A stretch of 17,405 nt of DNA. Origin: Thermoplasmata archaeon (lineage in GTDB: Archaea; Thermoplasmatota; Thermoplasmata; GCA-020350865). Positions 243 through 17,261 of this stretch are shown here, one piece after another; position 1 is the stretch's first letter; every line of letters begins with the position of its first letter. Location: the NCBI GenBank assembly GCA_020348445.1, contig CP070751.1, positions 1,223,303 through 1,240,707 of the forward strand, written 5' to 3'. The notes beneath the pieces were generated by a model. It saw only the letters and a list, made by a program, of their open reading frames with translations. It searched no databases and had not been told where the DNA came from. A program made the position numbers and the translations under genes.

Positions 243-261
243 GGAGGCTCGCTTCGTAGCA

Positions 262-636
262 TTATTCCAAAATAATTACGTTTTTTAGACCTTTAAAATG
301 TTTGTCTTTTGTTAATAATTTAGATTTCATTGAACGTGCGGAAGCATAAATGATTGCATCAATGCTATAAAGACCATGTTCTCTTTTCATATCTGCTCCA
401 AACAATGCGATTTTTGGGTCTAAATCAATTATTGAAGATTGTTCATAAATAAAATCAATTCTACTTTTCCATTTTCTATTCTCTCTTTGATATTTATTTT
501 TAATTTCTAATAATGCAATGCTTGGAGTATATATTGTCTCTTGATTATCAATATATTCTTTGACTATTTGTCCCAGATCTGATCCCGAGAAATACTCAAT
601 CCAAGCACTTGAATCAAATGTTACGGTCATGCTCAT
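262..636 (-). CDS. vapC: PIN-domain (VapC-like) toxin
   Basis: N-terminal FDSSAWIEY, later EI and SIIDL motifs, IDAIIYASA, LLTKDKHF; start may be the Met at 630. Confidence 0.85.
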   Translation of the reverse strand: MSMTVTFDSSAWIEYFSGSDLGQIVKEYIDNQETIYTPSIALLEIKNKYQRENRKWKSRIDFIYEQSSIIDLDPKIALFGADMKREHGLYSIDAIIYASARSMKSKLLTKDKHFKGLKNVIILE

Positions 637-814
637 CCCTAAGATCGCTTAAATCTGTTTGTTTTAACCAAGGATCCGCTCCAAACATGTTCTTGCGTTT
701 TCTTGAAAAATGCTTAGATAATATATCATTTATTGTAACTGATATTCTACGTTTACCATATTCTCTAACAATCTTTTGATATATATCGTCTCTAATCTCA
801 ATTGTAGTTCGCAT
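614..814 (-). CDS. Putative VapB-like antitoxin, 66 aa (MRTTIEIRDDIY...)
   Basis: Small gene overlapping the PIN start; the track ORF to 934 extends into repeat R1, so the ATG at 814 is preferred. Confidence 0.65.
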   Translation of the reverse strand: MRTTIEIRDDIYQKIVREYGKRRISVTINDILSKHFSRKRKNMFGADPWLKQTDLSDLRDEHDRNI

Positions 815-860
815 ACTATCAATAAGGCATATATGCTTATGCCTAATATATACTTTTCGG
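815..860 (-). promoter_or_regulatory. Archaeal BRE/TATA-like promoter with palindromic operator
   Basis: Minus strand aaaagtatata (847-857); inverted repeat aggcata 825-831 / tatgcct 838-844. Confidence 0.55.
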
Positions 861-887
861 TCTAAAAATGCTACTTCGCTCGCCTCC

Positions 888-1098
888 GTTAAGTGACGAC
901 CTCGTTCTTCGCTCTGTTGGGTAATCACCAACAACCGCTAAGGATTACTTCCTAATAAATGCTATTGGTCCAGAAGCAACCCTCCGGCTTAACGGAGCCA
1001 ACCTCCTACCTCCGGGCGAGGCATCACCTTCCACCCTCTAACCTTTCGCTCCTGCGCTGGACCCTGTGCAATCGGTACTCCCCTACCTGCTCGGAGCG
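888..1098. repeat. Repeat R1, subtype A
   Basis: gttaagtgacgacctcgttcttcgctct ... ccctacctgctcggagcg. Confidence 0.9.
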
Positions 1099-1117
1099 GG
1101 CTTGGGTGGATTTACTT

Positions 1118-1375
1118 TTAATAGATATTATCATGATGATCATAATCAAAAATAGTTACGGTCTTACTTTCTTCATCAATTTCATAAACAATTACAAAGG
1201 ATCCTATATGAGCTCTTCTAAGACCATCTAATGGGAATTTAAGTGGTTTAAAATGATATGGATCTTTTAAAATTTGTTTTATCTTTTTTCCAATCCGTCT
1301 TAATTGTTCTTTATCTTTTTTAGCTAACTTCTTAAATATCTTATCCGCTGAAGGCTTGATTTCAAGATTGTACAT
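1118..1375 (-). CDS. relE: RelE/ParE-superfamily toxin
   Basis: MYNLEIKPSADKIFKKL...LKDPYHFKPLK...RRAHIGSFVIVYEIDE pattern, 85 aa, basic. Confidence 0.8.
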   Translation of the reverse strand: MYNLEIKPSADKIFKKLAKKDKEQLRRIGKKIKQILKDPYHFKPLKFPLDGLRRAHIGSFVIVYEIDEESKTVTIFDYDHHDNIY

Positions 1376-1609
1376 TTAATTCAATCCATATCGATCTTCG
1401 AAAGATTTCACTTTAATACTCTTTTCCTTGCGGATTTTCTTGATTTTATCGATATATTCAGGTCTTAGTTCAGGTTCCATCACTTCTTCTTCGTAGATAT
1501 CTACTACTTTTTCAATTGCTTCGGATTTATCTTTAAGACCGTACTGTGCTTTTACAATGTTGAGTACTTGATTAGTGCGATTATCGATATCTATTATAGC
1601 TTTCACCAT
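1376..1609 (-). CDS. Antitoxin, resembles the archaeal DUF2683 family
   Basis: MVKAIIDID..NQVLNIVKAQYGLKDKSEAI..EPELRPEYI; directly upstream of the RelE-like gene. Confidence 0.7.
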   Translation of the reverse strand: MVKAIIDIDNRTNQVLNIVKAQYGLKDKSEAIEKVVDIYEEEVMEPELRPEYIDKIKKIRKEKSIKVKSFEDRYGLN

Positions 1610-1665
1610 ATTAACACCATGTTAATGTCATATATATTCCATATATATTTAATACTTTCGCTAAT
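1610..1665 (-). promoter_or_regulatory. Putative archaeal promoter of the TA cassette
   Basis: Minus strand gaaagtattaaa (1648-1659); direct repeat catatatatt at 1629 and 1640. Confidence 0.45.
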
Positions 1666-1689
1666 ATTTTCGTAAATCCACCCTTCGCC

Positions 1690-1889
1690 TTTAAGCCCCA
1701 TCCCTAAAACCATTATCTCTCTACGAGGATAAAGGTTTTGCCACTCCGTCGTGCGCTATGCCATGTGTACACTGGTAGTCGCTAATGATTTCTCCCTTTG
1801 GTCGCAACTTCTCCGCTCGGTCGTAACCTCGCTCCGAAGCGGAGCTTCCACAGATGCTTGCGTCAATGGGACATTGTCCTCGCATCGAA
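1690..1889. repeat. Repeat R2, subtype B
   Basis: tttaagccccatccctaaaaccatt ... gcttgcgtcaatgggacattgtcctcgcatcgaa. Confidence 0.9.
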
Positions 1890-1915
1890 AGGCGAACTAC
1901 GAAATGCTCTGTTTG

Positions 1916-1968
1916 CCACACCCTTCCGCTCCTCCGCTGAACCCACAAACGCCTTCTGCTCGGAGCGG
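1916..1968. repeat. Partial right-end fragment of a subtype C-like repeat inside the cassette
   Basis: ccacacccttccgctcctccgctgaa...cttctgctcggagcgg resembles 13850-13900. Confidence 0.7.
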
Positions 1969-1995
1969 TGCTGAAAGTCGTATGCCCCTTCAATT

Positions 1996-2403
1996 TTACT
2001 TCAATCGTAGTTCTTCTCCTTTGTCAAACTCAGCGAGAAATTGATCGATAGCTTTTACTCTACCTAATATTGGTGGAACATCATCGCTCTCTGCGATCAA
2101 AACAGGCGCTTCTAATTCATGACCACCTACTCTCATTTTTAGGTTATGCAGATAAACTACTAATCTGGCATAAGGTACAATGCCACTTACATCAGTTCTC
2201 ATTCCACTCTCTATATTCTCAATAAACATTGATCCTTGGGAGTATGGCAATACCGATAAATCAGCCCCTGTATCAACGAGAACATTCTCAATTATAAACC
2301 ATTTGTTACCTATTGGAGAGAAAATTTCAATATCTATTAATGGTCTTTTTATAATTCCCAATATCTTGCTGTGACGCTCTTTATATTTATGACTATTAGA
2401 CAA
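1996..2403 (-). CDS. Retropepsin-like (clan AA) aspartic protease
   Basis: RPLIDI...VLVDTGADLSVLP...PILGR signature; TTG start. Confidence 0.8.
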   Translation of the reverse strand: MSNSHKYKERHSKILGIIKRPLIDIEIFSPIGNKWFIIENVLVDTGADLSVLPYSQGSMFIENIESGMRTDVSGIVPYARLVVYLHNLKMRVGGHELEAPVLIAESDDVPPILGRVKAIDQFLAEFDKGEELRLK

Positions 2404-2551
2404 TTAGAATATCCTCCTTTGTAGGCACCCAGGACACAGATATTTTCCTATTAGGAAACTTATTCATTATCTCCTGGAATTTACTTTGGAGGTCTAAACC
2501 TTCCCATATCACATTATCATCTACCTTTATTATATACTTGTGATTGGGCAT
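2396..2551 (-). CDS. Small 51-aa protein (MPNHKYIIKVDDNVIWEGLDLQSKFQEIMNKFPNRKISVSWVPTKEDILIV), partner of the protease; not in the ORF track
   Basis: Hand translation; caggtga RBS upstream; TATA-like ctttatata at 2586-2594; overlaps the protease start. Confidence 0.65.
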   Translation of the reverse strand: MPNHKYIIKVDDNVIWEGLDLQSKFQEIMNKFPNRKISVSWVPTKEDILIV

Positions 2552-2670
2552 ATTGCGTCACCTGATATTAGATAGTATTTTAGCCTATATAAAGCCATCG
2601 CAATTATTTTAGCCCTTAATCGAGGCATCCCTTTATTATTATTGCTTATTTGGGCATTCCTCCGTTCGCC

Positions 2671-2870
2671 TTCAAGTGACGAACCCCGTCCTGAACGTTC
2701 GCTTCCGTCACTATTATTGACACGCTCACATGGGATTGCTCCCTTATCGTCTTTTCGATTATTTAGTCGCAACTCCTCGGTTACGGACCCATGCCCTACC
2801 TCGGAGCGGGGCATCATCCCTCCCCTAACCTTGCGCCCCTGCGCCGGCCCTACCCTACCTGCTCGGGGCG
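2671..2870. repeat. Repeat R3, subtype D
   Basis: ttcaagtgacgaaccccgtcctgaacgttcgct ... ccctacctgctcggggcg. Confidence 0.85.
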
Positions 2871-2895
2871 TCCTCGGAGAGGCCATTTAATTAGA

Positions 2896-3633
2896 TTATT
2901 CTTCTATTCTGCTTTTAATTTCCTTCTGGATTTTTTTATGATATCCTCTGTTATTACTGAATGCTAGAAAAGGAAATGTTCTCCCATCAGTAAGATAAAT
3001 ATTCCCCCGATCCACATTTGATATTTCTTTCCAACGGAATTCATACTTTCGATAGGGGAGAACCAATTCTAATGTATCTTTTCTGTAAACCACCTTATTA
3101 GGTGGTAAGATATATCTAACTCTTCTACCAGATATTTCATCCTTATTAATATATATCCTGTTCTTTTTAGCAATATCAAAAAGAAGATGCTTGCCTCTTT
3201 TCCCAAGCTCTCCTTTTTCTAAAAGAATTCGTTCATTGTATTTGGTAATCAAACAGATAGCCGCAATCCCAGGTATTCCTAAACTCTTATTTTTATAATC
3301 ATTGGGTAAAATTTCAATTATATCCTTATAATCTATTTTTTTCCGCTTATCGCTAAAAAAACCATCTGGTATTTCAAGATCATTTTGATAAAAAATTATG
3401 GGTTTCCTTTTAAAAGCAACATATAATTCCAAAATTGCTACAAGTAATACTATTGGACCTACTACTAAATATAATAATCTCGAAATAAGTTCTGATCCCC
3501 GAAAGTTGGTGCCAGGAATTAGGGCTAAGGAGATAATTAATATGGAAAGGAAAATCAACAAAAATCCAATGAATTTTGAAAGCCAAACATTGTTATAACA
3601 ACGGTAAATAATTTTTTCATTAGATTCATCCAC
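2896..3633 (-). CDS. Hypothetical membrane protein, two N-terminal TM helices plus soluble region
   Basis: 245-aa ORF filling the cassette; hydrophobic stretches FIGFLLIFLSILIISLALI and LLYLVVGPIVLLVAILEL. Confidence 0.7.
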   Translation of the reverse strand: MDESNEKIIYRCYNNVWLSKFIGFLLIFLSILIISLALIPGTNFRGSELISRLLYLVVGPIVLLVAILELYVAFKRKPIIFYQNDLEIPDGFFSDKRKKIDYKDIIEILPNDYKNKSLGIPGIAAICLITKYNERILLEKGELGKRGKHLLFDIAKKNRIYINKDEISGRRVRYILPPNKVVYRKDTLELVLPYRKYEFRWKEISNVDRGNIYLTDGRTFPFLAFSNNRGYHKKIQKEIKSRIEE

Positions 3634-3680
3634 TTTTGCTCACCCCAATAAGGATGGCCTTTCCTCGGACCCTTCGGGCT

Positions 3681-3958
3681 CTTAAGCCCCAACCTTGGCT
3701 CAGTCGTTTTCGGTATTTGTTTGATATAATATAAAACCTACCTTCACTCCCTCGCCAACCACCTCGCCGTGAACATTCGCTGCCGTCACCCAGAGGGTTT
3801 ACTCACTCACATGCGATTGGAGGTTTTTCCGTCTTTGACAGGTGCCACCTCCAACCCGTCGTGCAAACGGCCTTCCCTGCAACTCCGGGCGAGGCATCCA
3901 CCTCCCTCACACCGTTTCGCTGGCTCACCGAAGCCCTACCCCTTCAAGTTCGCCGACG
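3681..3958. repeat. Repeat R4, subtype C (divergent right end)
   Basis: cttaagccccaaccttggctcagtc ... gtgcaaacggccttccctgcaactccgggcgaggcatcc. Confidence 0.85.
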
Positions 3959-3979
3959 GGGAACTCGGGTGCATAGTTA

Positions 3980-4192
3980 TCATATCTCTTTCGGTTCATT
4001 AATTCGACGCAAGATTATGATAATAGGAATGATAAATAAGATTATTAAAATAATTCGAATCGTCCATATCACATTTTTATTAGAGGTGTTTAGGAAAAAA
4101 GTTAGGTATAAAAAAATGAACCAAAGGAAAATGTCAATATAGACTAAAGCATCAAAATAATTAATATTTCTTCCATTAAGTTCATCTTCCAT
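3980..4192 (-). CDS. Small hypothetical membrane protein (2 TM)
   Basis: 70 aa; ggtga RBS; fills the cassette. Confidence 0.65.
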   Translation of the reverse strand: MEDELNGRNINYFDALVYIDIFLWFIFLYLTFFLNTSNKNVIWTIRIILIILFIIPIIIILRRINEPKEI

Positions 4193-4211
4193 CTTTTCAC
4201 CCTTCGTTCCC

Positions 4212-4552
4212 TTAAGTGACGACCTCGTTCTTCGCTCTACCGGTTTTCACCTGTAACCGCTAAGGATTGCTTCCTAATAAATGCTATTGGTCCGGAAGCA
4301 ACCCTCCGGCTTCGTGCTCCCTTCAGGAGCACTTAGTTGTTAATTTATTCCCCTAATAAATGCTGGAAGTCATAAATTCCCAACTTAACGGACCCTCGTC
4401 CTACCTCCGGGCGAGGCTTCACTTTCCACCCTCTAACCTTTCGCCTCTGCGCTTCTGATGTCTCGCTTCGCTCGCCATCTGAATTTTCAAATTTCTTCGA
4501 AATCCGAAAATGGACCTGGTAATATTGGTTCTCCCCTCCCTGCTCGGAGCGA
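4212..4552. repeat. Repeat R5, subtype A with 74-nt and 58-nt inserts (longest copy)
   Basis: ttaagtgacgacctcg ... ccctccctgctcggagcga. Confidence 0.9.
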
Positions 4553-4578
4553 GCGAGGAGCCCCAATTTAATAGATTA

Positions 4579-4815
4579 TTATTTCTTTAGCGTTGATTTA
4601 AGTTGTTTTGGATTTAAATATAGTTCAATATGGCCACAATCTAAGCAAGTTCCACATAGAACTTGTTCACCTGAAAGCATCTTATTTGAAGAACGATATA
4701 ATATGCTCGATCCAGTGAATGCTCCAACTGCAAAGCTTCCAGATGTAACAAGAGATCCATAATCAAGTTCACCGCCACAATAAGAACACTTTTGTGATTT
4801 ATTCTTTGGTTCCAT
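4579..4815 (-). CDS. Small Zn-ribbon protein
   Basis: CSYCGG...CLDCGHIELY (two CxxC); ggtgaggag RBS. Confidence 0.7.
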   Translation of the reverse strand: MEPKNKSQKCSYCGGELDYGSLVTSGSFAVGAFTGSSILYRSSNKMLSGEQVLCGTCLDCGHIELYLNPKQLKSTLKK

Positions 4816-4832
4816 AATAATCGCTCCTCACC

Positions 4833-5052
4833 TTCAAGTGATGACCTCGTCCTAAACATTCGCTGCGTCGTTTATAGACGTCTCCGCTCACATAGAATTA
4901 CTCCTTTATCGTCTTTTCCATATCATAGTCGTAACTTTTTGGCTTCACGGCTCCTCAGCCTACCAAAAAGCGAGGCATCTCCTCCTCCCCTCTAGCCTTT
5001 CACTCCTGCGCTGGACCCTATACTATCGGTACTCCCCTACCTGCTCAGAGTG
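4833..5052. repeat. Repeat R6, subtype D
   Basis: ttcaagtgatgacctcgtcctaaacattcgctgcgtc ... cccctacctgctcagagtg. Confidence 0.9.
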
Positions 5053-5092
5053 GGCAACATTGGGCACTTTGTTACAATTAATATGTAAAATT

Positions 5093-5752
5093 TTAACTTC
5101 CATATCTAATCGGGTAGTTACTAGCTTTTATGTTAATATTATTGATCTTTTTTTCAATTTCATTAATTCCCTCTAGTAAATTCGCAAACAGTGGATTTCG
5201 ATTTAATTTTTCTTGCGTAATAGGAATTTTAACTTCTTTTATTTCTTTTAAAACTAAATGATATCTTCTAAGATTAAATTCCCTCTTAAATTCAAAGGCT
5301 AATGATTCGGCAGCTTCAAGAACTTCTACCGTCCATTTTCTTGGGGTATCTTTTGGAGTTTTCCAATTGGTATCTTTAAAATCTACATAAAGGCTTTGCT
5401 CTCTAATTATATTTAGGTCTTCAAATATTATAGTTCTTATTGCAAGGTCAATAGCATCTTTACCAAATAAACTTAGATCTGCAAAACTTGCTGTATATTG
5501 TTTCCTTTTATGATTTCTCCAAGTTTTCCAAAAAGTACCCCACTCAATTTTTTGTCCATTATTAATCCATACTGCTGCTAACAATAGTAAGTAAACTTTT
5601 CCAAGTTCTTCTAATGATGATATTGCTATAGCAGTTGCTGTTGAATAACGTCTTTTGCTATATAATCTCCTAGCGTCCTCTGCTAATTTATATCCGTTTT
5701 CTGCACATATACAAGCGCCTTTGATTGCTTCTTCAAATGTTATTTTTGACAT
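5093..5752 (-). CDS. AbiV-family (HEPN) abortive-infection protein, 219 aa
   Basis: LAEDARRL..RYSTA..A...LEELGK, NHKRKQ, REQSLYVDF...WKTP motifs; true start MSKITF at 5752 with aagggg RBS (the track extension to 5884 lies in R7). Confidence 0.75.
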   Translation of the reverse strand: MSKITFEEAIKGACICAENGYKLAEDARRLYSKRRYSTATAIAISSLEELGKVYLLLLAAVWINNGQKIEWGTFWKTWRNHKRKQYTASFADLSLFGKDAIDLAIRTIIFEDLNIIREQSLYVDFKDTNWKTPKDTPRKWTVEVLEAAESLAFEFKREFNLRRYHLVLKEIKEVKIPITQEKLNRNPLFANLLEGINEIEKKINNINIKASNYPIRYGS

Positions 5753-5791
5753 ATTACCCCTTCCCAAATTATTATCGTGCCCAATGTTGCC

Positions 5792-5991
5792 GTTAAGCCC
5801 CATCCCTAAAACCATTATTGTCCTTCGGACATAAAAGTTTTGCCACTGCCCTCCTTCGTTTTGTTGTTTATTGCTAACAACCACTCACGGTTGCTCAGCC
5901 TTCGGCCTCGCAACATCTCCGCTCGGTCGTAACCTCACTCCGAAGCAGAGCTTCCACAGTTGCTTGCGTCGCTAGAAAGCGTTTCGCAGCT
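5792..5991. repeat. Repeat R7, subtype B
   Basis: gttaagccccatccctaaaacc ... gcttgcgtcgctagaaagcgtttcgcagct. Confidence 0.9.
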
Positions 5992-6028
5992 AAGGCGAGG
6001 AATTTGTTATCACTTACTTCCTCGCCTT
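5992..6028. other. Empty (gene-less) cassette: perfect 11-bp inverted repeat around a 15-nt spacer
   Basis: aaggcgaggaa 5992-6002 / ttcctcgcctt 6018-6028, between two complete repeats. Confidence 0.8.
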
Positions 6029-6281
6029 CAAGCCCCGTCCGCTCATTGCGCTGGCTTATTTCACTATCATTCTCTACGCCTGCTCGTTCGCCCCTAAAAC
6101 CATTATTGTCCTACGAACATAAAGGTTTTGCCACTCCGTTCTGCGCTTTGTTGATTATTGCTATCAACCGCTAAGAATTGCTCGGATTTCATCCTCGCAA
6201 CTCCTCGTTCGGGTCGTAACCCTCACTCTGAGCAGAGCTTCCACAGTTGCTTGCGTCAATTGAAAATTGTCCTCGCAACTA
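6027..6281. repeat. Repeat R8, subtype B with an extra left module
   Basis: ttcaagccccgtccgctc...cccctaaaaccattattgtcc ... tgtcctcgcaacta. Confidence 0.85.
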
Positions 6282-6340
6282 AGACGACTCCCTATTGTTA
6301 ATAACGAATGGAGGCACTTAGCTTATTCTCCCCAAACCCT

Positions 6341-6392
6341 CCACCACACCATTGCGTGCCTGTGCTGAAGCCATCCCCCTTCTACTCGGCAC
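6341..6392. repeat. Degenerate subtype C-like right-end fragment inside the cassette
   Basis: ccaccacaccattgcgtgcctgtgctgaagccatcccccttctactcggc. Confidence 0.6.
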
Positions 6393-6408
6393 TTATAGAT
6401 TAAAAATG

Positions 6409-6795
6409 TTACCAAGATATTACTTTTAATGCAGTAACTCTTTTGAAATGATTGGTATCCCTTGTTATCAGTGAGCAACCATTTACTTTTGCTATTCCTG
6501 CTATCATAGCGTCTCTCATTGGTATTTCTTTTCCTTTTATCCTTAAATCTGCATAGATCCTAGCTGCTTCATCAGCTGCGAATCTGTTAAACTCGAATAT
6601 ATGAAATCTCGATAAAAGAAGTTGAGCAGCTTCTAATTTCTTTTTACTTAATTGATTAGCACCAGCTAATAGTTCAAAAAAAGAGATGGAGGTCGTGAAA
6701 TATTCTTTATTTTCATCAAGTTCGTTAACTAACTTTCGAACTTTCGGTACATCGTTTAAAACATCGATTAAGAAATCAGTATCTACACATCTCAT
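6409..6795 (-). CDS. vapC: PIN-domain VapC toxin
   Basis: CVDTDFLIDVL, SFFELLAG, DAMIAGIA, LITRDTNHF. Confidence 0.9.
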   Translation of the reverse strand: MRCVDTDFLIDVLNDVPKVRKLVNELDENKEYFTTSISFFELLAGANQLSKKKLEAAQLLLSRFHIFEFNRFAADEAARIYADLRIKGKEIPMRDAMIAGIAKVNGCSLITRDTNHFKRVTALKVISW

Positions 6796-7028
6796 TAGCT
6801 ACCCAACCTTCTTTTCAGTTCATCGTCGCTGTCTTCCCAGGATTTCTTAATATCTTCGAATATTTTCCGCTCTTTTTGAGATAGTTTCCATAAACCTAAA
6901 CATTCCTTCAATGTTCCATGTTTACTTGTCAACCTAAGTGCTAAGTTCGAAAAACTTTCACGCTCTCTTTTTTCCCTTATTAATGCTTCATATGCAGATT
7001 TCGTGATAGTAATTGTTTTAGTTACCAA
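6795..7028 (-). CDS. vapB: VapB-family antitoxin (DUF217-like)
   Basis: TKTITITKSAYEAL.REKR.RESFS.L..RL; cggtga RBS; TTG start; stop/start overlap with vapC. Confidence 0.8.
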   Translation of the reverse strand: MVTKTITITKSAYEALIREKRERESFSNLALRLTSKHGTLKECLGLWKLSQKERKIFEDIKKSWEDSDDELKRRLGS

Positions 7029-7075
7029 TGAATCACCGTTTAAACATATATGTATGTTTAGATATAAATATTTCG
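7029..7075 (-). promoter_or_regulatory. TATA-like promoter with palindromic operator
   Basis: Minus strand gaaatatttatat; inverted repeat taaacat 7041-7047 / atgttta 7054-7060. Confidence 0.55.
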
Positions 7076-7128
7076 GTTCAATTATCTAAAGTTCGTGCCT
7101 CCAGCCTCGCTTATTTTCGGGAGTCGCC

Positions 7129-7340
7129 TTTAAACCCCATCCCTACAAACCTTTAATGTGTTTCCATACTTAAACGGTTCGCGCCACTCCCCCAGCGGGC
7201 CGGTTGCTTCTTGTCCTCGATATATTTTGCTGGAAATATAACTCTTACTGTCGTCGCAACATCTCCGCTCGCCTCGTCGGCTAGCTCCGATAGGGAGCTT
7301 CCACAGATGCTAGCGTCAATGGGACATTGTCTTCGCATCG
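7129..7340. repeat. Repeat R9, subtype B
   Basis: tttaaaccccatccctacaaacc ... gggacattgtcttcgcatcg; only copy with AAA instead of AAG at the left end. Confidence 0.9.
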
Positions 7341-11241: not shown

Positions 11242-11328
11242 AAAAATTAGAAACGACAATCCCCTCCTTTTACTATCAAACGAACGCAGGCCTCGGAATG
11301 GCATTCAGCTACAGCGTGATATACCATT

Positions 11329-11537
11329 TCTAAGTGACGACCTCGTTCTTCGCTCTACTTGTTTTCACCCGTAACCGCTAAGGATTACTTCCTAATAAAT
11401 ACTATTGTTGTGGAAGTAACCTTCCGGCTTAACGGACCCTCGTCCTACCTCCAGGCGAGGCTTCACTTTCCACCCTCTAGCCTTTCGCCTCTGCGCTGGA
11501 CCTGATACAGTTGGTTGGCCCCTACCTGCTCGAGGCG
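11329..11537. repeat. Repeat R11, subtype A
   Basis: tctaagtgacgacctcg ... ccctacctgctcgaggcg. Confidence 0.9.
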
Positions 11538-11593
11538 GGCGAAGGCTCTAAGAAGTATCGGTGGGGGCACTTAATTCCTCATTATTATAAACA

Positions 11594-11926
11594 TTATACT
11601 GGCATATTAACTTTATAAATCTCTTCACGTTTATATAGATACAAAGCAAAAATTATTATTGGTATTATAAATGCTAAGATTCCCCATAATTGAGGTGACC
11701 ATGCTACAACACGGGAATGTTTACGCCTTGGTGGTGCATTACCTGCATTAATTTTTTTAGCATCTGAAAAGATCATAATACTGGTAAATAAATGGTAGAA
11801 GGTAAATATTCTACCAAATCCTATAATTAATATACAAATCGCATCCATATTTAATAATATCGAAAATAAAGTTGAATATATTAAAGCTATAAAAAACACT
11901 TCGAGAATAAATAAGAGAATTAGCAA
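11594..11926 (-). CDS. Hypothetical membrane protein; frame is open upstream to a possible ACG start at 11971
   Basis: Three hydrophobic segments; SPQLWGILAFIIPIIIFALYLYKR C-terminus. Confidence 0.65.
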   Translation of the reverse strand: MLILLFILEVFFIALIYSTLFSILLNMDAICILIIGFGRIFTFYHLFTSIMIFSDAKKINAGNAPPRRKHSRVVAWSPQLWGILAFIIPIIIFALYLYKREEIYKVNMPV

Positions 11927-12009
11927 ATTATTTTTCTTATATACGTATCTTTTTCGTTTGGGAATATTCGTGCCCCCTACCTTCCAATATAAATCGCCTT
12001 CGCCTCGCC

Positions 12010-12226
12010 TTTAAGCCCCAGCCCTACAAACCTTTAATGTATTTCCATACTTAAACGGTTTGCGCCACTCCTTCAGTGTACCGATTGCTCCTAGTCCTAT
12101 GATTATACATCATCGAGTATATCAATGTTGACTCTCGTCGCAACTTCTCCGCTCGCCCCGTTGGCTCACTCCGAAGAGGAGCTTCCACAGATGCTTGCGT
12201 CAATGGGTCATTGTCCTCGCATCGAA
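12010..12226. repeat. Repeat R12, subtype B
   Basis: tttaagccccagccctacaaacc ... tgtcctcgcatcgaa; very similar to R17. Confidence 0.9.
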
Positions 12227-12254
12227 GTCGGTCGGGTGTTGACTTTATTGAAAA

Positions 12255-12521
12255 TTATTTTCTATATCCTCGACCTCGTTTAAAAACTTCAATTACTCTT
12301 ACAGTTTTTTTCTCAATTAGATAAATAATTCGATATTCTCCAACTCTAAGACGGTGTTTTTGAGGTTTAGTTCCACTTAAAGGTGATATATCTGCATTCG
12401 GGCGAGCTTTTATTGGATCTTTTTCTAATTCTTTTAAACCTGCTTTTATCCGTTTTTGTACGCTTTTATTGAGAGAATTAAATATCTTTTGAAAAGTTCT
12501 TGAAACTAGAACTTTGTACAT
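12255..12521 (-). CDS. relE: RelE/ParE-superfamily toxin
   Basis: MYKVLVSRTFQKIFNSL...LEKDP...HRLRVGEYRIIYLIE...VIEVFKRGRGY. Confidence 0.9.
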   Translation of the reverse strand: MYKVLVSRTFQKIFNSLNKSVQKRIKAGLKELEKDPIKARPNADISPLSGTKPQKHRLRVGEYRIIYLIEKKTVRVIEVFKRGRGYRK

Positions 12522-12706
12522 TATAATTCGTCCAATGGAATAAATTCATCTTCTTCAAGAATCTTGTTCCATCTAGCATCTAGCTTCTTCCAGCTAGCTT
12601 CTTTAATTAATTTATTAATTACCTCATCATAACTCTCACCCTTCTCTCCTAATTGTCGCAGTAACTCCTTAGTTTCATGCGTTACAGCTACAGTTGTCGT
12701 TGTCAT
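12521..12706 (-). CDS. Putative antitoxin (RHH-like)
   Basis: TTVAVTHETKELLRQLGEKGESYDEVINKLI; acidic C-terminus; stop/start overlap with relE. Confidence 0.75.
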   Translation of the reverse strand: MTTTTVAVTHETKELLRQLGEKGESYDEVINKLIKEASWKKLDARWNKILEEDEFIPLDEL

Positions 12707-12770
12707 CTATAACACCTATAGAGCATATAGAAGTTATATTATTTATAGTTTATGCTATAAAAAGTTTACA
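12707..12770 (-). promoter_or_regulatory. Putative TATA-like promoter/operator of the TA cassette
   Basis: Minus strand ctttttata (12756-12764); inverted repeat agcata 12722-12727 / tatgct 12751-12756. Confidence 0.4.
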
Positions 12771-12795
12771 TCAAAATCGTCAACACCCTCCCTCC

Positions 12796-13061
12796 TTAAG
12801 TGAAGACCCCGTTCTTCGCTCTATTGTCTATCACCATCAATCGCTAAGGATTACTCCCTATTTGGTTTTATCGTTGAGGGAGTAACTTTTTTGCTTAACG
12901 GACCCTCGTCCTACAAAAAAGCGGGGCTTCTTTCTCCGCCCTCTAACCTTTCGCTCCTGCGCTTCTGATGTCTCGCTTTGCTCGCCATCTGAATTTTCAA
13001 ATTTCTTCGAAATCCGAAAATGGACCTGGTACTATTGGTACTCCCCTACCTGCTCGAGGCG
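12796..13061. repeat. Repeat R13, subtype A variant with the 58-nt insert
   Basis: ttaagtgaagaccccgttcttcgctct ... ccctacctgctcgaggcg. Confidence 0.9.
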
Positions 13062-13086
13062 GGAGGCTTGCTACGGAGAAATTTCC

Positions 13087-13602
13087 TTATATTTTAGTAG
13101 ATCCACTACTCAGATAGTCTGCGAGAGTATATACATTGAATCTACCGCTTAGATATGATGTGATTTCATTTAATTCAGGTATTGAATCAGAACTCTTTTT
13201 TGAAATCCATATCCTGGTATAATCAGGATTAGGCTGTGATTCCTTGGCTATATACAAGTTAGTCCTTATCTCAATGAGTTCAAATCTATATTTACCCGGA
13301 TCAAAATAATAATCTTTCATTTTTTCAGTTAGTTGATATTTTATTTTATTATTTATGAGATAGGTTTCTATCGTAGAAATCACTTCTTCAATCTGTCTAT
13401 CAATTACTATCTGCTCCCATCTCCCAGTCCCAGTAGAGAATGTAAATAGAACAATGAATATTATTACTAAAACTATTAAGATAATAAATAGATCTGTCCA
13501 AGCTTCATACAATGATGAATATAAAATAATTGAAATTGGAATGACACCAATCAGTAAAATGATTGCTATCCTTTTGGCTATTTCTTTATTTATTTCTCTC
13601 AT
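13087..13602 (-). CDS. Hypothetical membrane protein (2 TM plus soluble domain), 171 aa
   Basis: Start MREINK at 13602 after a ggagg RBS; the track extension to 13632 lies in the inverted repeat/R14. Confidence 0.7.
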   Translation of the reverse strand: MREINKEIAKRIAIILLIGVIPISIILYSSLYEAWTDLFIILIVLVIIFIVLFTFSTGTGRWEQIVIDRQIEEVISTIETYLINNKIKYQLTEKMKDYYFDPGKYRFELIEIRTNLYIAKESQPNPDYTRIWISKKSSDSIPELNEITSYLSGRFNVYTLADYLSSGSTKI

Positions 13603-13627
13603 TGAAATTTCTCCTCCGCTCGCCTCC

Positions 13628-13899: not shown

Positions 13900-14409
13900 G
13901 GAGACATCGGTTTCTAATTGATATTTGCCCTGAAATGTTTTTATCTCACATTTTGATTCTAAAAATTTCAATGCATTCTTTGATATCTGCCAAATTCTTA
14001 CGAGCTTATCTTGATATTTTATCTTTATTTTTGGTGTAAGATCGCCATACCATAAATATTGCTTTGTTGTGCGTTCTGGGATCATGATGTATTCAATATC
14101 AGCATATTTTATAAATTCTTTTTTCAAAGGATTTCTATACAAAAGAATTCCATTTTCATAGTATTTGATCCCACGTTTATAATAATTAATAAAACCTAAA
14201 ATAGCAGTAAATAAAAAAAAGATTACTGGTGCATAAAGTAGAAAGTCGTTCCATAAATCTCCCTTGAATAATGATTCGTCAATAGTCAAGTAGAGATAAT
14301 TTAAGTAAACAATTTCAAATATAATTGACACTACTAAAATCATAAAATATATCTTACGATTTTCATTAGTCATAACAAATGGACCTTTATCAATATCATT
14401 AACATCCAT
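13879..14409 (-). CDS. Hypothetical membrane protein (2 TM); stop codon lies inside R14
   Basis: 176 aa; C-terminus TDVSRSEQKG is encoded by the inverted repeat and repeat end. Confidence 0.7.
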   Translation of the reverse strand: MDVNDIDKGPFVMTNENRKIYFMILVVSIIFEIVYLNYLYLTIDESLFKGDLWNDFLLYAPVIFFLFTAILGFINYYKRGIKYYENGILLYRNPLKKEFIKYADIEYIMIPERTTKQYLWYGDLTPKIKIKYQDKLVRIWQISKNALKFLESKCEIKTFQGKYQLETDVSRSEQKG

Positions 14410-14461
14410 TAATCATATCTCCCAAGATGCACCCTTCAGTTCAATATCAACCGATGTCTCC

Positions 14462-14732
14462 TTAAAGCCCCAACCTTGGCTCGGTAGTCAATCGCTTTGC
14501 TAAGATTTATTATTATCGCTCTTTCCTCCCTCTCCAACCACCTCGCCGTGAACATTCATTACCGTCATCCAGAGGATGTACCCATTCACATGCGATTGGA
14601 GGCTTTTCCGTCTATGACATGTGCCACCTCCTACCCGTCGTGCAAACGGCCTTTCCTGCAACTCCGGGCGAGGCATCCGACCTCCCTTAACCTTTCGCTC
14701 CTCCGCTGGCCCTACCCTACCTGCTCGGAGCG
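14462..14732. repeat. Repeat R15, subtype C
   Basis: ttaaagccccaaccttggctc ... ccctacctgctcggagcg. Confidence 0.9.
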
Positions 14733-14743
14733 GGAGGTGGCAA

Positions 14744-15130
14744 CTAAGAATTCAATCTTTTTATTTGTGAATATGCTCTTAGAAAAGGAATAAATAAAAG
14801 GAAAACACCAGGCAAAACTAGAATAAAATAGAGTGTCACATTCACTAATAGTGCTATTGATAGAGACAATATGATCATAACAACTCCTACAATGAATACA
14901 ATTCTATCAATTTTTGATCCTAAAAATGTCTCATTATCAATGGGATTAGATTGAATTAAAGGAATCAAGATGAATATAAAGCTTAGAATAAAACCAACTC
15001 CGGCTAAAATTAAAAAAGCATTGCGTTTTATAATATCGAAGTTATTTTGTTGAATATAAATAAATATTCCAAATATAACAAATGGAATTACTATCCCCGT
15101 ATAAAGAAACATTTGTTGTGATTTATTCAA
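14744..15130 (-). CDS. Hypothetical membrane protein (about 4 TM)
   Basis: 128 aa, strongly hydrophobic, TTG start, fills the cassette. Confidence 0.7.
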   Translation of the reverse strand: MNKSQQMFLYTGIVIPFVIFGIFIYIQQNNFDIIKRNAFLILAGVGFILSFIFILIPLIQSNPIDNETFLGSKIDRIVFIVGVVMIILSLSIALLVNVTLYFILVLPGVFLLFIPFLRAYSQIKRLNS

Positions 15131-15184
15131 AGTTAGCCCTTTTACGATTCTATTCCCTCCTCTTTATTATTCGTTGCCACCTCC

Positions 15185-15402
15185 TTCAAGTGATGACCTC
15201 GTCCTAAACATTCGCTGCGTCAATTACTGACGTCAACGCTCACATAGAATTACTCCCTTATCGTCTTTTCGATTTGCGGTCATAACTCCTCGGGCCCAAC
15301 GGCCACCCTGGACCTCAGAGCGAGGCATCTCCTCCGCCCCTCTAGCCTTTCGCTCCTGCGCTGGACCCTGTACTATTGGTACTCCCCTACCTGCTCGGAG
15401 CG
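15185..15402. repeat. Repeat R16, subtype D
   Basis: ttcaagtgatgacctcgtcctaaacattcgctgcgtc ... cccctacctgctcggagcg. Confidence 0.9.
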
Positions 15403-15452
15403 GGAGGCGGAACTTTTTATAAAGTCGGGATGCTACTAAAGAGATTACTCAA

Positions 15453-15818
15453 TTAACTAAATGATGAAATGTAATTATTGATTCCCTCTTCAATCCTTTT
15501 AATATATTTACCACCGACAACCAACCCCCAAGTCTTATAACTCACATTTGATTTTGTTTCGTACATAATCAAAAATACTGATTGAATTATCGTTGAATGT
15601 AAACCTGTTTTATCTACTAGCTTATTCATTTCACTTATAGTATTTTCATTTAAATTATTCTTAACTAACAGAATGATTGATGCACCTGATTCTCTTGTGA
15701 ACCATTTACTTTTATATCTTTTAGTAATATACGTCCGAACTATTTCCTTAATTTTCATTAGATCATCAATGGAATCAACCCTTAAATCTGTTAAATCTAT
15801 GATAATTGCCACATACAT
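15453..15818 (-). CDS. Hypothetical soluble protein
   Basis: 121-aa ORF, AT-rich, no family recognised; about 140 bp AT-rich leader upstream. Confidence 0.6.
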   Translation of the reverse strand: MYVAIIIDLTDLRVDSIDDLMKIKEIVRTYITKRYKSKWFTRESGASIILLVKNNLNENTISEMNKLVDKTGLHSTIIQSVFLIMYETKSNVSYKTWGLVVGGKYIKRIEEGINNYISSFS

Positions 15819-15995
15819 TGTAATTTTCTTTTCCTTATAAAAAACACTTATAATATTAATCTCCTCATATTTTTCTCCATCAATTTTTTTAAAAATTTAT
15901 ATCTTTGAGTTTATTTTCAATTTCATTTACTAAAGTTTGATACATAAATTATACCTCCTGTTACGCATCCCTTTTATGAATTTCGTTCCGCCTCC

Positions 15996-16212
15996 TTCAA
16001 GCCCCATCCCTACAAACCTTTAATGTGTTTCATACTTAAACGGTTTGCGCCACTCCTTCAGTGTACCGATTGCTCCTAGTCCTATGATTATACATCAAAG
16101 AGTATATCAATGTTCACTCTCGTCGCAACTTCTCCGCTCGGGCCGTTTCCCTCGCTTCGAAGAGGAGCTTCCACAGATGCTTGCGTCAATTGGAAATTGT
16201 CCTCGCATCGAA
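15996..16212. repeat. Repeat R17, subtype B
   Basis: ttcaagccccatccctacaaacc ... tgtcctcgcatcgaa. Confidence 0.9.
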
Positions 16213-16221
16213 GGTGAGGCT

Positions 16222-16449
16222 CTAAATATTCTCGGCTGTATCTATTTTTTTCTCATTACATGTTTTATACAATCTAATGTAAATGGCATTCATTGCAGTG
16301 AGCGTTAAAATAATTACGATAAATTGACCGATATGTAATATATGTGTATATACATCTTCCACACCATATTTAGTTAAAAGACCAAGAGACATACCTATAA
16401 TTACAAAACTTGGTCCCAGTAAAGACCATTTCGATATTTTTACGCTCAT
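16222..16449 (-). CDS. Small hypothetical membrane protein (2 TM)
   Basis: 75 aa; ggagg RBS; fills the cassette. Confidence 0.65.
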   Translation of the reverse strand: MSVKISKWSLLGPSFVIIGMSLGLLTKYGVEDVYTHILHIGQFIVIILTLTAMNAIYIRLYKTCNEKKIDTAENI

Positions 16450-16502
16450 AGATCATTCCTCCACTTAATTCAAGATACAGCCTCGCTTTTATTCGCCTCG
16501 CC

Positions 16503-16711
16503 TTCAAGTGAAGACCCCGTTCTTCGCTCTGCTGTCTATCACCATCAACCGCTAAGGATTACTCCCTATTTGGTTTTATTGTTGTGGGAGTAACTTTTTT
16601 GCTTAACGGACCCTCGTCCTACAAAAAAGCGGGGCTTCTTTCTCCGCCCTCTAGCCTTTCGCTCCTGCGCTGGACCCTGTACTATCGGTACACCCCTACC
16701 TGCTCGGAGCG
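16503..16711. repeat. Repeat R18, subtype A variant without inserts
   Basis: Near-identical to R13 apart from the 58-nt insert. Confidence 0.9.
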
Positions 16712-17215
16712 GGCGACTCCCTTAGTCTTTTTTCGGCTGGAGGTCCTTTTATTTATTCTATTTTCAATTTCTCTTATCTCTTGGATATTATTGTCTTTTA
16801 TTGGGCCAATTGATACAACAGTATATTTGTGCCCACGAAATCGGAATCCATATTTCTTTAAGTTTATTTTAAAGTTTTTTTCATACAACAAAAAACTATG
16901 AATGTCATGAGATAGAATATGTTGTGGGATAAGTTTATAATTGATTCTATTTTCCTTTAATATATTCTCAATATCTTTTCGTACAATTTTATAATCCAAA
17001 GAGATATATCTTTTTTCCCATCCTCGCTTTTTATAATTTTCATGTGAAAACCATAGAAAAAATACTCCCCAAAATAAAGCCGTAATAAATGCTCGTGTTA
17101 AAAGAACATTTAATGTTAATACATACCATAAGGCTAAGATAGCGCCAAATAGGGTAAGAAATAGTGTAAATAGAATAAATTTGATAGAATAATTCTTCCA
17201 ATGCTTTGACCTCAT
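16682..17215 (-). CDS. Hypothetical membrane protein (2 TM); stop codon lies inside R18
   Basis: 177 aa; C-terminus GVARSEQVGVYR is encoded by the inverted repeat and repeat. Confidence 0.65.
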   Translation of the reverse strand: MRSKHWKNYSIKFILFTLFLTLFGAILALWYVLTLNVLLTRAFITALFWGVFFLWFSHENYKKRGWEKRYISLDYKIVRKDIENILKENRINYKLIPQHILSHDIHSFLLYEKNFKINLKKYGFRFRGHKYTVVSIGPIKDNNIQEIREIENRINKRTSSRKKTKGVARSEQVGVYR

Positions 17216-17261
17216 AATCTAACTTCCATGCCTCCAGCCTCGCTGATAATCGGGAGTCGCC

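What the first reader, a model, noticed from the sequence alone, without database searches (positions are those of the whole stretch)
243..17261. Every cassette is enclosed by its own private inverted repeat that pairs across the gene
Seen: the sequence just right of repeat n is the reverse complement of the sequence just left of repeat n+1, and it differs for each cassette. Perfect matches: ggcaacattgggcac 5053-5067/5777-5791 (15 bp); 13900-13912/14449-14461 (13); 7341-7353/8196-8208 (13); 14733-14744/15173-15184 (12); 15403-15413/15985-15995 (11); 1104-1114/1673-1683 (11); 13075-13085/13604-13614 (11); 12234-12243/12779-12788 (10); 16712-16721/17252-17261 (10). Imperfect matches: 2870-2886/3654-3670 (14 of 17); 6282-6292/7119-7129; 16210-16220/16495-16505; 11538-11546/11996-12004; 4555-4561/4823-4829; 1890-1897/2664-2671; 243-263/867-887. 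Inference: both ends of a cassette travel together, so gene plus IRs is the mobile unit. In a circular cassette carrying one repeat, the IR would close the repeat into one large stem-loop. This is the logic of integron R''/R' matching, but with much longer cassette-specific arms.
Basis: partly seen in the sequence, partly recalled or inferred. Interest (0 to 1): 0.92.

Follow-up and report, generated by a model that had tools for sequence, protein, structure and literature searches.

The report
Archaeal gene cassettes closed by matching stems
In an uncultured sediment archaeon, a long row of small accessory genes is built so that each gene sits between two matching inverted ends; gene plus ends are inherited as one piece between large folded repeats, an integron-like layout with no integron parts, and the best enzyme candidate is a pair of IS200-type single-strand-DNA genes at the head of the row.

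Summary
Observation confirmed. All 16 listed pairs are at the stated coordinates. Same-cassette flanks match far better than other flanks (0 of 100,000 permutations).

Interpretation partly supported. Four cassettes recur in relatives or metagenome contigs. Homology starts and stops at the outer ends of the inverted repeat (IR), so gene plus IR is the inherited unit. Orthologous cassettes carry compensated IR changes. The repeats on both sides differ in type between copies, so a circle carrying one repeat is not supported. The IRs are also not fully private: the outer 5-9 bp are semi-conserved, and whole bipartite end modules recur around unrelated genes.

No integron integrase or attC-like site was found, and Rfam gave no match.

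New here: a distinct clade of IS200-type Y1 HUH genes lies at or inside these arrays in four species. It is usually a pair, one intact and one catalytically degenerate. In four loci, the intact gene is followed by a conserved element that ends in a repeat-like left end joined directly to a first cassette's IR.

Best model (about 45%): single-strand cut-and-join at the base of each cassette stem.

The scan reported analogous arrays on other Thermoplasmata DNA (e1-5541585, e1-4478093). I found no paper describing them.

The parts
1..242 (-). repeat r1 (type A right part with inserted module; cut by contig start)
243..887 (-). cassette c1: PIN toxin 262-636 plus upstream small ORF. Bipartite IR 243-263 / 867-887 (6 bp, 8-nt bubble, 7 bp)
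   Evidence: same cassette in L142 and L156 with other repeats and a compensated IR change
888..1103 (-). repeat r2 (type A1)
1104..1683 (-). cassette c2: ParE 1118-1375 plus DUF2683 1376-1609. IR 1104-1115 / 1672-1683, 12 bp
   Evidence: same cassette in L153 behind a B-type repeat end
1684..1889 (-). repeat r3 (type B)
1890..2671 (-). cassette c3: ORFs 1996-2403 and 2396-2551, with an M3-type hairpin module inside at about 1916-1975. IR 1889-1897 / 2664-2672, 9 bp
2672..2869 (-). repeat r4 (type A2)
2870..3670 (-). cassette c4: 245-aa ORF 2896-3633. IR 2870-2886 / 3654-3670, 14 of 17
3671..3961 (-). repeat r5 (type C)
3962..4204 (-). cassette c5: 70-aa ORF 3980-4192. Weak IR 3959-3964 / 4206-4211
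4205..4554 (-). repeat r6 (type A1 with two inserted modules)
4555..4829 (-). cassette c6: 78-aa ORF 4579-4815. IR 4555-4561 / 4823-4829, 7 bp; its 5' arm on the gene strand doubles as the ribosome-binding site
4830..5052 (-). repeat r7 (type A2)
5053..5791 (-). cassette c7: AbiV-type HEPN gene (ORF 5093-5884; likely start near 5752). IR 5053-5067 / 5777-5791, 15 bp
5792..5991 (-). repeat r8a (type B)
5992..6028 (.). gene-less 'empty cassette': 11-bp stem around a 15-nt loop between two complete repeats
   Evidence: the only one found in all loci examined
6029..6281 (-). repeat r8b (type B)
6282..7129 (-). cassette c8: PIN 6409-6795 plus 77-aa ORF 6795-7028, with an internal M3-like module. 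Bipartite IR 6282-6292 / 7119-7129 plus 6319-6326 / 7097-7104
   Evidence: same end module as c18 and other cassettes with unrelated genes
7130..7340 (-). repeat r9 (type B)
7341..8208 (-). cassette c9: ORFs 7471-7863 and 7860-8105. IR 7341-7353 / 8196-8208, 13 bp, plus a second inner block
8209..8524 (-). repeat r10 (type B start, M3-type end, inserted module)
8525..11329 (+). large slot: 859-aa LVIVD/redoxin surface-type gene 8662-11241 on the other strand. IR 8525-8539 / 11255-11269 (14 of 15), then a conserved local-hairpin module ending CCATTTC at 11329
11330..11537 (-). repeat r11 (type A1)
11538..12004 (-). cassette c11: 110-aa ORF 11594-11926. IR 11538-11546 / 11996-12004, 9 bp
12005..12233 (-). 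repeat r12 (type B)
12234..12788 (-). cassette c12: two small ORFs, 12255-12521 and 12521-12706. IR 12234-12243 / 12779-12788, 10 bp
12789..13074 (-). repeat r13 (type A1 with inserted module)
13075..13614 (-). cassette c13: membrane-type ORF 13087-13632. IR 13075-13085 / 13604-13614, 11 bp, with an outer block 13062-13067 / 13622-13627
   Evidence: partial homologue in L140
13615..13899 (-). repeat r14 (type C)
13900..14461 (-). cassette c14: 176-aa ORF 13879-14409. IR 13900-13912 / 14449-14461, 13 bp
14462..14732 (-). repeat r15 (type C)
14733..15184 (-). cassette c15: 128-aa ORF 14744-15130. IR 14733-14744 / 15173-15184, 12 bp
15185..15402 (-). repeat r16 (type A2)
15403..15995 (-). cassette c16: 121-aa ORF 15453-15818. 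IR 15403-15413 / 15985-15995, 11 bp
15996..16209 (-). repeat r17 (type B)
16210..16505 (-). cassette c17: 75-aa ORF 16222-16449. IR 16210-16220 / 16495-16505, 10 of 11
16506..16711 (-). repeat r18 (type A1)
16712..17261 (-). cassette c18: 177-aa ORF 16682-17215. IR 16712-16721 / 17252-17261, 10 bp, plus an inner block; same end module as c8
17262..17405 (-). repeat r19 (type B; cut by contig end)

Best explanation
The window is one piece of a large chromosomal gene-cassette array in a Thermoplasmata archaeon. The inherited unit is IR-gene-IR'. The two arms pair in single-stranded DNA of the gene-sense strand. The gene loops out, and the right end of one folded repeat is brought next to the left end of the following repeat. 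A single-strand-specific HUH enzyme then cuts and rejoins at the base of this stem. The candidate is the IS200/IS608-type Y1 protein 'IIa', usually encoded beside a catalytically degenerate paralogue 'IIb' at the head of the array. Because cutting happens at both junctions, cassettes and repeats can be exchanged independently. The semi-conserved outer base pairs of the IR plus the conserved repeat ends would form the recognised site. The private inner base pairs only have to pair. Shown: the IRs, their co-inheritance with the gene, compensated changes, folded repeats, and the physical link with the Y1 genes. Inferred: single-stranded DNA as the substrate, the enzyme, the cut positions, and whether the cassette or the repeat is the moving part.
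For: (1) The IR pairs are real and cognate-specific. (2) Four cassettes appear in different contexts. Homology ends at the IR outer ends, and the flanking repeats differ in type on both sides. Contigs of related populations also break at these same boundaries. (3) IR changes are compensated. c1 has TAGCATT/AATGCTA in the window and TAGTGTT/AACACTA in L142. The L153/L154/L004 orthologues show paired substitutions and a paired 1-nt indel. (4) The stems are almost purely Watson-Crick: 358 WC pairs, 2 G.T and 7 A.C. This fits DNA pairing better than an RNA helix under selection. (5) The repeats are folded. The M3 basal stem has at least 8 fully compensated variants, with observed pairing 0.63 against 0.39 when shuffled (shuffled max 0.51). 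The gene-sense strand folds better (-40.9 against -27.2 kcal/mol). (6) Class-II Y1 genes lie at or within 3 kb of arrays in 9 of 10 loci examined in four species. Ordinary IS200 copies do so in 0 of 3. In L003, L160, L162 and L163, the IIa stop codon is followed by a conserved 100-155-nt element. That element ends ..GTGACTTAA and joins directly to AGGCGA.., the reverse complement of the array's IR'-plus-left-end junction. In L003 the element folds with z = -5.0. In L003 and L162, IIa sits at the border between the array and core genes. (7) IIa matches IS608 TnpA (E 6e-26) with the HUH motif and Tyr intact. IIb lacks the second His and the Tyr helix. (8) No integron integrase was found, and only two tyrosine-recombinase fragments lie elsewhere in the genome.
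Against: No circle junction and no emptied site was seen. Only assembled contigs could be laid, not reads. The Y1 link rests on neighbourhood alone. IS200-type elements are known to seek hairpins, so the Y1 genes could be invaders or cargo of the arrays. In G003 several pairs sit between repeats and in either orientation. One class-II pair (L161) has no repeat within 8 kb. All five genomes of the genus are incomplete MAGs (80-91%), so another recombinase may be unassembled. A 500-2700-nt loop is far larger than any hairpin known to be used by IS608 TnpA or IntI. Promoterless cassettes would carry the IR in their mRNA, and in three cassettes the 5' arm is the ribosome-binding site. So an RNA-level role is not excluded.
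Confidence: 0.45

Rival explanations
1. The repeats are the mobile parts. They would be gene-less IS200/IS605-type elements (PATE-like), with an M3 hairpin at one end and a hairpin plus linker plus ..CTTAA at the other. The Y1 enzyme would insert them next to the base of any suitable stem. The cassettes would be the resident DNA between insertions.
For: On the gene-sense strand, each repeat starts with a hairpin directly at the junction. It ends with a hairpin, a roughly 13-nt linker and CTTAA or CTTGAA, like the left and right ends of IS608 (IS608 anatomy from PMC5027513 and my own knowledge). Repeats also follow a conserved local hairpin module ending CCATTTC behind large surface-protein genes, in 18 copies. 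Repeat types assort independently of cassettes.
Against: This does not explain why small genes should already sit inside long-range stems. It also does not explain why the same cassette with its IR turns up in different arrays of different species. The repeats are confined to arrays rather than scattered through the genome.
Confidence: 0.17
2. The pairing works in RNA. The array would be transcribed as long RNAs, the repeats would be structured processing or insulating elements, and each IR would close the mRNA of its gene for stability, processing or control of translation. Shuffling of cassettes would happen by some other means.
For: The better-folding strand is the gene-sense strand, and single mismatches in the M3 stem are mostly G.U-compatible on that strand. 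Ten of 17 cassettes lack a TATA-like box and have only a ribosome-binding site. In c5, c6 and c13 the IR 5' arm is that site, so pairing with the CCTCC-type 3' arm would mask it.
Against: The toxin-antitoxin cassettes have a TATA-like box downstream of the 5' arm, so their mRNA would lack that arm. The IR stems contain almost no G.U pairs. No Rfam family matches. RNA function alone does not explain homology breaks exactly at the stem base with changes of repeat type. The stems show no bulge-helix-bulge geometry (read from the sequence).
Confidence: 0.18
3. It is a true integron relative. An unassembled tyrosine recombinase would act on very large attC-like sites, each made of IR', a repeat and IR.
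For: The layout fits: co-oriented small cassettes, many toxin-antitoxin pairs, and matching of cassette start to cassette end, which is the logic of R'/R''. The genome is only 82% complete.
Against: No IntI-type match reaches the cut-off. The best is 25.5 bits against 265. The repeats are 200-350 nt, and reading of the sequences and alignments shows no R or L boxes. The repeats are not inherited with their cassette on either side. None of the five species shows a tyrosine recombinase next to any array edge examined.
Confidence: 0.07
4. Cassettes are reshuffled only by homologous recombination between repeats. The IRs would be leftovers, for example of old terminal repeats, with no present function.
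For: The repeats are mosaic and modular, as expected after many crossovers.
Against: Breakpoints lie at the cassette edge, where the neighbouring repeats share no homology because they differ in type. Compensated changes show that the pairing itself is maintained.
Confidence: 0.08

Closest known systems
Sedentary chromosomal integrons and CALINs, including those reported in Archaea (Ghaly et al. 2022, PMC9668308)
   Same: Long arrays of small, co-oriented, mostly unrelated accessory cassettes rich in toxin-antitoxin pairs. The start of a cassette is complementary to a sequence at its end. A folded single strand is likely involved, and there is an enzyme-plus-site 'head' next to core genes.
   Different: There is no IntI and no attC (57-141 nt with R and L boxes). 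The private pairing is 8-17 bp and spans the gene instead of forming a compact hairpin behind it. The 200-350-nt inter-cassette repeats are not inherited with the cassette. Many cassettes carry their own promoter-like box. The candidate enzyme is an HUH Y1 protein, not a tyrosine recombinase.
IS200/IS605 family (IS608, ISDra2) and their gene-less derivatives (PATEs); 'peel and paste' single-strand transposition (PMC5027513)
   Same: IIa is a clear TnpA homologue with the HUH motif and Tyr. Hairpins sit at the ends of the repeats. The junctions are sharp and unrelated in sequence on the left and right. The strand asymmetry matches.
   Different: The enzyme genes are not inside each unit. They come as an intact-plus-degenerate pair at the array head. 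The units form one ordered array rather than dispersed copies. The exchanged piece is bounded by a long-range stem private to it, which IS608-type elements do not have.
REP/BIME sequences with RAYT (TnpA-REP) domesticated Y1 transposases (PMC3333891, PMC8266576; classification in PMC6006769)
   Same: A resident Y1 HUH gene is associated with many copies of a structured non-coding repeat that it presumably processes as single-stranded DNA.
   Different: REPs are 20-40-nt palindromes scattered between genes across the chromosome. Here the repeats are 200-350 nt, modular, confined to arrays and alternate with cassettes. The proteins carry the IS200-type Y---Q motif (subclass 1.1-like), not the RAYT class.

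Membership tests
Integron | Integron-type tyrosine recombinase (IntI, TIGR02249) next to the array | tested here: not met
   The best match in the genome scores 25.5 bits against a cut-off of 265, on an unrelated 1.8-kb contig. Only two Phage_integrase fragments exist in the genome. None lies at any array edge in five species. The genome is 82% complete.
Integron | attC sites: 57-141-nt imperfect palindromes with R''/L''/L'/R' boxes and a GTTRRRY core | tested here: not met
   The inter-cassette elements are 198-350 nt, of at least four types. Their ends read TTMAAG.. and ..GAGCGG or ..CATCGAAG. No attC covariance model was available, so this rests on reading the sequences and alignments.
Integron | Each cassette carries its own recombination site when it moves | tested here: not met
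   The same cassette is flanked by repeats of different types on both sides in different genomes and contigs.
Integron | Array of co-oriented, unrelated, mostly single-gene cassettes | tested here: met
   Seventeen of 18 gene slots are on the minus strand. They hold PIN, ParE, DUF2683, AbiV and small membrane ORFs. No cassette is duplicated within the genome.
IS200/IS605 family | Y1 HUH transposase with HUH motif and catalytic Tyr | tested here: met
   PF01797 matches at 5e-32. IIa matches IS608 TnpA at E 6e-26 over its full length with HVH and the Y---Q helix; IIb is degenerate.
IS200/IS605 family | A discrete element with subterminal hairpins at both ends that encloses the transposase gene and occurs as dispersed copies | tested here: not met
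   The class-II Y1 genes sit at array heads or between repeats, not inside each unit. The repeats occur only in arrays.
IS200/IS605 family | Excision as a single-stranded circle and insertion 3' of a fixed 4-5-nt target | not testable with these tools
   Only Logan contigs could be laid, and no raw reads were available.
REP/RAYT (REPtron) | RAYT-class Y1 protein flanked by short REP palindromes that are dispersed genome-wide | tested here: not met
   The repeats are 200-350 nt and clustered. The protein carries IS200-type motifs (classes as in PMC6006769).
Known structured RNA families (Rfam 15) | Match to a curated covariance model | tested here: not met
   There were no matches at E up to 1 on either strand of the window.

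The most novel reading that the evidence does not exclude
This would be a gene-capture platform run by an HUH single-strand-DNA enzyme pair instead of a tyrosine recombinase. A Y1 gene pair plus an attachment element would head a chromosomal array. The recombination site of each cassette would not be a fixed sequence. It would be a private long-range stem that only has to pair, flanked by conserved ends of large folded spacer elements. That would make it a second, independently evolved solution to the problem integrons solve, found in Archaea.
Probability: 0.4. Interest if true: 0.92.

Novelty: categorically new. Interest (0 to 1): 0.86.

Why it matters
Integrons are the only well-understood system that stockpiles and reshuffles single genes as cassettes. 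They depend on one enzyme family and one kind of folded site. An array that gives the same layout with different parts would show that cassette platforms evolved more than once, and in Archaea. Here the parts are private stems spanning each gene, large structured spacers, and probably an HUH enzyme pair.

A site defined mainly by pairing rather than by sequence would also interest people who engineer single-strand DNA insertion. The natural 37-nt empty cassette gives a ready minimal substrate for testing.

The cassettes carry toxin-antitoxin and abortive-infection genes, so the array is probably a reservoir of defence and stress functions for these sediment archaea.

Tried and rejected
- **Rfam:** the scan of both strands gave nothing.
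- **Integron integrase and tyrosine recombinase:** nothing relevant was found.
- **Exact-protein look-up of the ParE cassette protein:** not on record.
- **Duplicated cassettes inside the genome:** none.
- **Sequencing runs:** no RNA holder is listed. All holders are kept as Logan contigs.
- **Laid contigs:** laying them showed breaks at cassette edges in related populations. It showed no circle junction and no clean empty site. Contigs cannot show rare forms.
- **Strand test on the IR arms by wobble pairs:** too few mismatches to decide (2 against 7).
- **Bulge-helix-bulge splicing motif at the stem base:** the flanking bases do not allow it (read from the sequence).
- **Reading the IR as guide plus target of a TnpB-like RNA-guided nuclease:** the geometry can be drawn that way on either strand. 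I left it untested; I ran no TnpB search and saw no such gene in the array-edge ORFs I scanned.
- **IR'-plus-left-end junction motif:** a class-wide search found enrichment only in this genus. The other 396 sampled genomes had 0-4 hits, mostly 0-1, similar to the reversed-pattern control. The sample included the unpublished genome G301 with one such hit.
- **IIa-IIb complex prediction:** I did not run it. A pass would mainly reflect likeness to solved TnpA homodimers.

Full report
**What the window is.** The 17,405 bases are one whole contig of a 5.16-Mb metagenome-assembled genome (82% complete). Its contigs are joined by runs of 100 N, and the contig starts and ends inside repeats. Earlier notes of this scan call the organism an uncultured sediment Thermoplasmata archaeon. 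I did not re-derive the taxonomy.

AT-rich segments (20-35% G+C) alternate with 198-350-nt segments of 45-65% G+C. The AT-rich segments hold small genes. All but one are on the minus strand: PIN, ParE, DUF2683, an AbiV-type HEPN protein, and small membrane-type ORFs with no family. The exception is an 859-aa LVIVD/redoxin protein on the plus strand.

The G+C-rich segments are direct repeats of at least four modular types.
- Types A1 and A2 start TTMAAGTGA.. and end in a hairpin module that I call M3 (..CTGCTCGGAGCGG).
- Type B starts TTAAGCCCCATCCC.. and ends ..CTCGCATCGAAG.
- Type C starts like B and ends with M3.

The genome has further pieces of such arrays on contigs that also break in repeats. 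Two contigs show an array edge.

**The observation.** I scored all right-flank windows against all left-flank windows. Same-cassette pairs average 10.75, and all other pairs average 5.34 with a maximum of 10. The cognate partner is the best or tied best in 15 of 16 rows. No permutation out of 100,000 reaches the observed total.

The slot with the 859-aa gene was said in another note to lack an inverted repeat. It has one at 8525-8539 / 11255-11269, matching 14 of 15. Slot 3962-4204 has only a weak pair. It found 26 further distinct pairs, many of them perfect over 12-17 bp.

The arms are not entirely private.
- The outermost 5-9 bp fall into a few forms (GGAGGCGG, AAGGCGAGG, GGCGA..).
- Some whole bipartite end modules surround unrelated genes. 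Each consists of an outer block, an unpaired stretch and an inner block. Cassettes 6282-7129 and 16712-17261 and a 279-aa gene cassette at the array head share one such module. Cassette 7341-8208 shares another with an unrelated cassette family in L153, L154 and L004.

**What travels together.** The genus has five species genomes, and all carry the repeats. A 24-nt scan of metagenome contigs added 24 loci from estuarine and marine sediments. Four cassettes recur in different surroundings.
- 243-887 recurs in L156 (90% identity) and L142 (77%).
- 1104-1683 recurs in L153 (90%).
- 6282-7129 recurs in L142 (83%).
- A cassette of another array of this genome recurs in a sister species (L002/L013, 87%).

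In each case the alignment starts at the first base of the left arm and stops at the last base of the right arm, within 2-3 bases of microhomology. The repeats beyond are of different types. For 243-887 the left neighbour ends with M3 in the window but with a B-type end in L142 and L156. The right neighbour is type A in the window and type B or another type elsewhere. Contigs of related populations laid on the window also diverge at these boundaries.

Neither neighbouring repeat belongs to it, which argues against a circle that carries one repeat.

**Is the pairing maintained?** Yes.
- In 243-887 the inner block reads TAGCATT/AATGCTA in the window and L156 but TAGTGTT/AACACTA in L142. Two positions have changed on both arms.
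- In the orthologous cassettes of L153, L154 and L004, the inner block changes by paired substitutions and a paired single-base deletion. The outer block shows G-C in one copy, T-A in another, and mismatched intermediates.
- Across 26 distinct stems I counted 358 Watson-Crick pairs but only 2 G.T and 7 A.C. This fits pairing in DNA, or copying of one arm from the other, better than an RNA helix under selection.

**The repeats are folded.** The 6-bp basal stem of M3 occurs in at least eight fully compensated versions, for example CGCTCC/GGAGCG, CGTGCC/GGCACG, CGCCCT/AGGGCG and CGTGTC/GACACG. Observed pairing is 0.63, against 0.39 when the arms are shuffled among copies (shuffled maximum 0.51). 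A consensus fold of 15 type-A copies is better on the minus, gene-sense strand (-40.9 against -27.2 kcal/mol). Single mismatches in M3 are mostly A.C on the plus strand, which is G.T on the gene-sense strand. On that strand, each repeat begins with a hairpin directly at the junction with the preceding cassette arm. It ends with a hairpin, a short linker and CTTAA or CTTGAA. No Rfam family matches.

**The enzyme candidate.** The genome has no integron-type integrase, and no tyrosine recombinase lies near an array. One array edge in this genome (L003) carries two divergent PF01797 (IS200-like Y1) genes. The genus has 5-17 Y1 genes per genome. They fall into two groups: ordinary IS200 TnpA, and a distinct class that usually comes in pairs.
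- 'IIa' matches IS608 TnpA at E 6e-26 over its whole length, with the HUH motif and the tyrosine helix.
- 'IIb' in its short form has lost the second histidine and the C-terminal tyrosine helix.

Nine of ten class-II loci examined in four species have array repeats or junctions within 3 kb. None of three ordinary IS200 loci does.

In L003, L160, L162 and L163, the IIa stop codon is followed by a conserved 100-155-nt element rich in AT palindromes, which may hold a promoter. It ends ..GTACGTGACTTAA and is joined directly to AGGCGA.., the outer arm of a cassette. This is the reverse complement of the array's usual junction between a right arm and a type-A left end. In L003 the element is closed by a 13-bp stem and folds far better than shuffled sequence (z = -5.0). 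In L003 and in L162 (another species), IIa sits between the array and ordinary chromosomal genes: hydantoinase in one case, and TFB, thioredoxin, Usp and a transporter in the other. In L003 the first cassette's gene points the same way as IIa.

This is the arrangement of an integron platform, but with an HUH enzyme. The published survey of Y1 proteins lists only ordinary IS200-type proteins in archaea and mentions no pairs (PMC6006769). My literature searches found no description of such arrays.

**Most likely mechanism.** In single-stranded DNA of the gene-sense strand, the two arms pair and the gene loops out. This sets the end of one repeat beside the start of the next. A Y1 enzyme cuts on both sides of the stem base and rejoins the ends, as IS608 TnpA does at its two unlike ends (PMC5027513). 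This accounts for four features:
- the sharp junctions, which are unrelated on the left and right;
- the independence of cassettes and repeats;
- the need for pairing without a fixed sequence;
- the semi-conserved outer base pairs.

I put this at about 45%. The substrate, the enzyme, the cut sites and the moving partner are all inferred.

**Rivals.**
- The repeats could be the mobile, PATE-like parts that insert beside stems (17%). In favour, 18 copies of a conserved local hairpin module ending CCATTTC also sit directly before a repeat start, behind large surface-protein genes.
- An RNA-level role is not excluded (18%). Ten of 17 cassettes look promoterless, and in three the 5' arm is the ribosome-binding site. 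The toxin-antitoxin cassettes, however, have a TATA-like box inside the arm.
- A true integron with an unassembled integrase (7%) and plain homologous recombination (8%) fit the breakpoints poorly.

**Distribution and limits.** This repeat family was found only in this genus among 401 sampled genomes of the class. That sample included the unpublished genome G301, on which nothing here depends. Earlier follow-ups of this scan described analogous arrays with other repeats in other Thermoplasmata (e1-5541585, e1-4478093). I treat them as leads only. All genomes used are fragmented MAGs, and arrays break assemblies. No reads were available to look for circles.

Noticed in passing
L003:16532-17625 (G000:C1:4214531-4215624); also L160, L161, L159, L011, L164: Recurrent pairs of IS200-type Y1 genes. 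One member is intact (HUH motif plus Tyr). The other has lost the second His and the C-terminal Tyr helix. The pair can be divergent, convergent or tandem. A second pair type has both members intact.
   Followed up: partly
window 11283-11329; 17 more copies in L004, L005, L008, L009, L011, L015, L140, L141, L143, L149, L150, L153, L158: A conserved module of about 47 nt forms a two-part local hairpin and ends CCATTTC directly before a repeat start. In the window it lies behind the large plus-strand surface-protein gene, and its other copies are concentrated in loci that hold large surface-protein genes.
   Followed up: partly
G000:C1:3733181-3758528 (L004, L005): A second, looser array holds large secreted or surface-protein genes. 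They share a C-terminal domain of about 100 aa with the window's 859-aa protein and alternate with degraded copies of the same repeats.
   Followed up: no
window 5992-6028: Between two full repeats lies only an 11-bp stem with a 15-nt loop and no gene. It is the only such case in all loci examined and would be a natural minimal substrate.
   Followed up: yes
L142:4170-4195 versus window 7105-7129: In the L142 copy of cassette c8, four bases of the outer right arm are inverted (GGAG to CTCC). This breaks the outer block, while the inner block is longer (12 bp).
   Followed up: no
window 4555-4561, 13075-13085, 4196-4204 (gene-strand 5' arms): In three promoterless cassettes, the IR arm upstream of the gene is itself the Shine-Dalgarno-like sequence 6-9 nt before the start codon. 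Pairing with the far arm would mask it.
   Followed up: no
window 145-215, 4454-4524, 8430-8500, 12964-13034; also 4312-4385 and 1-75: Optional inserts of 60-75 nt, themselves hairpin-rich, are present in some repeats and absent from otherwise similar ones. The repeats are therefore built from exchangeable modules.
   Followed up: no
window 13879-13912 and 16682-16721: Two cassette ORFs read through their downstream IR arm and stop inside the neighbouring repeat. Their last codons would therefore change with the neighbour.
   Followed up: no
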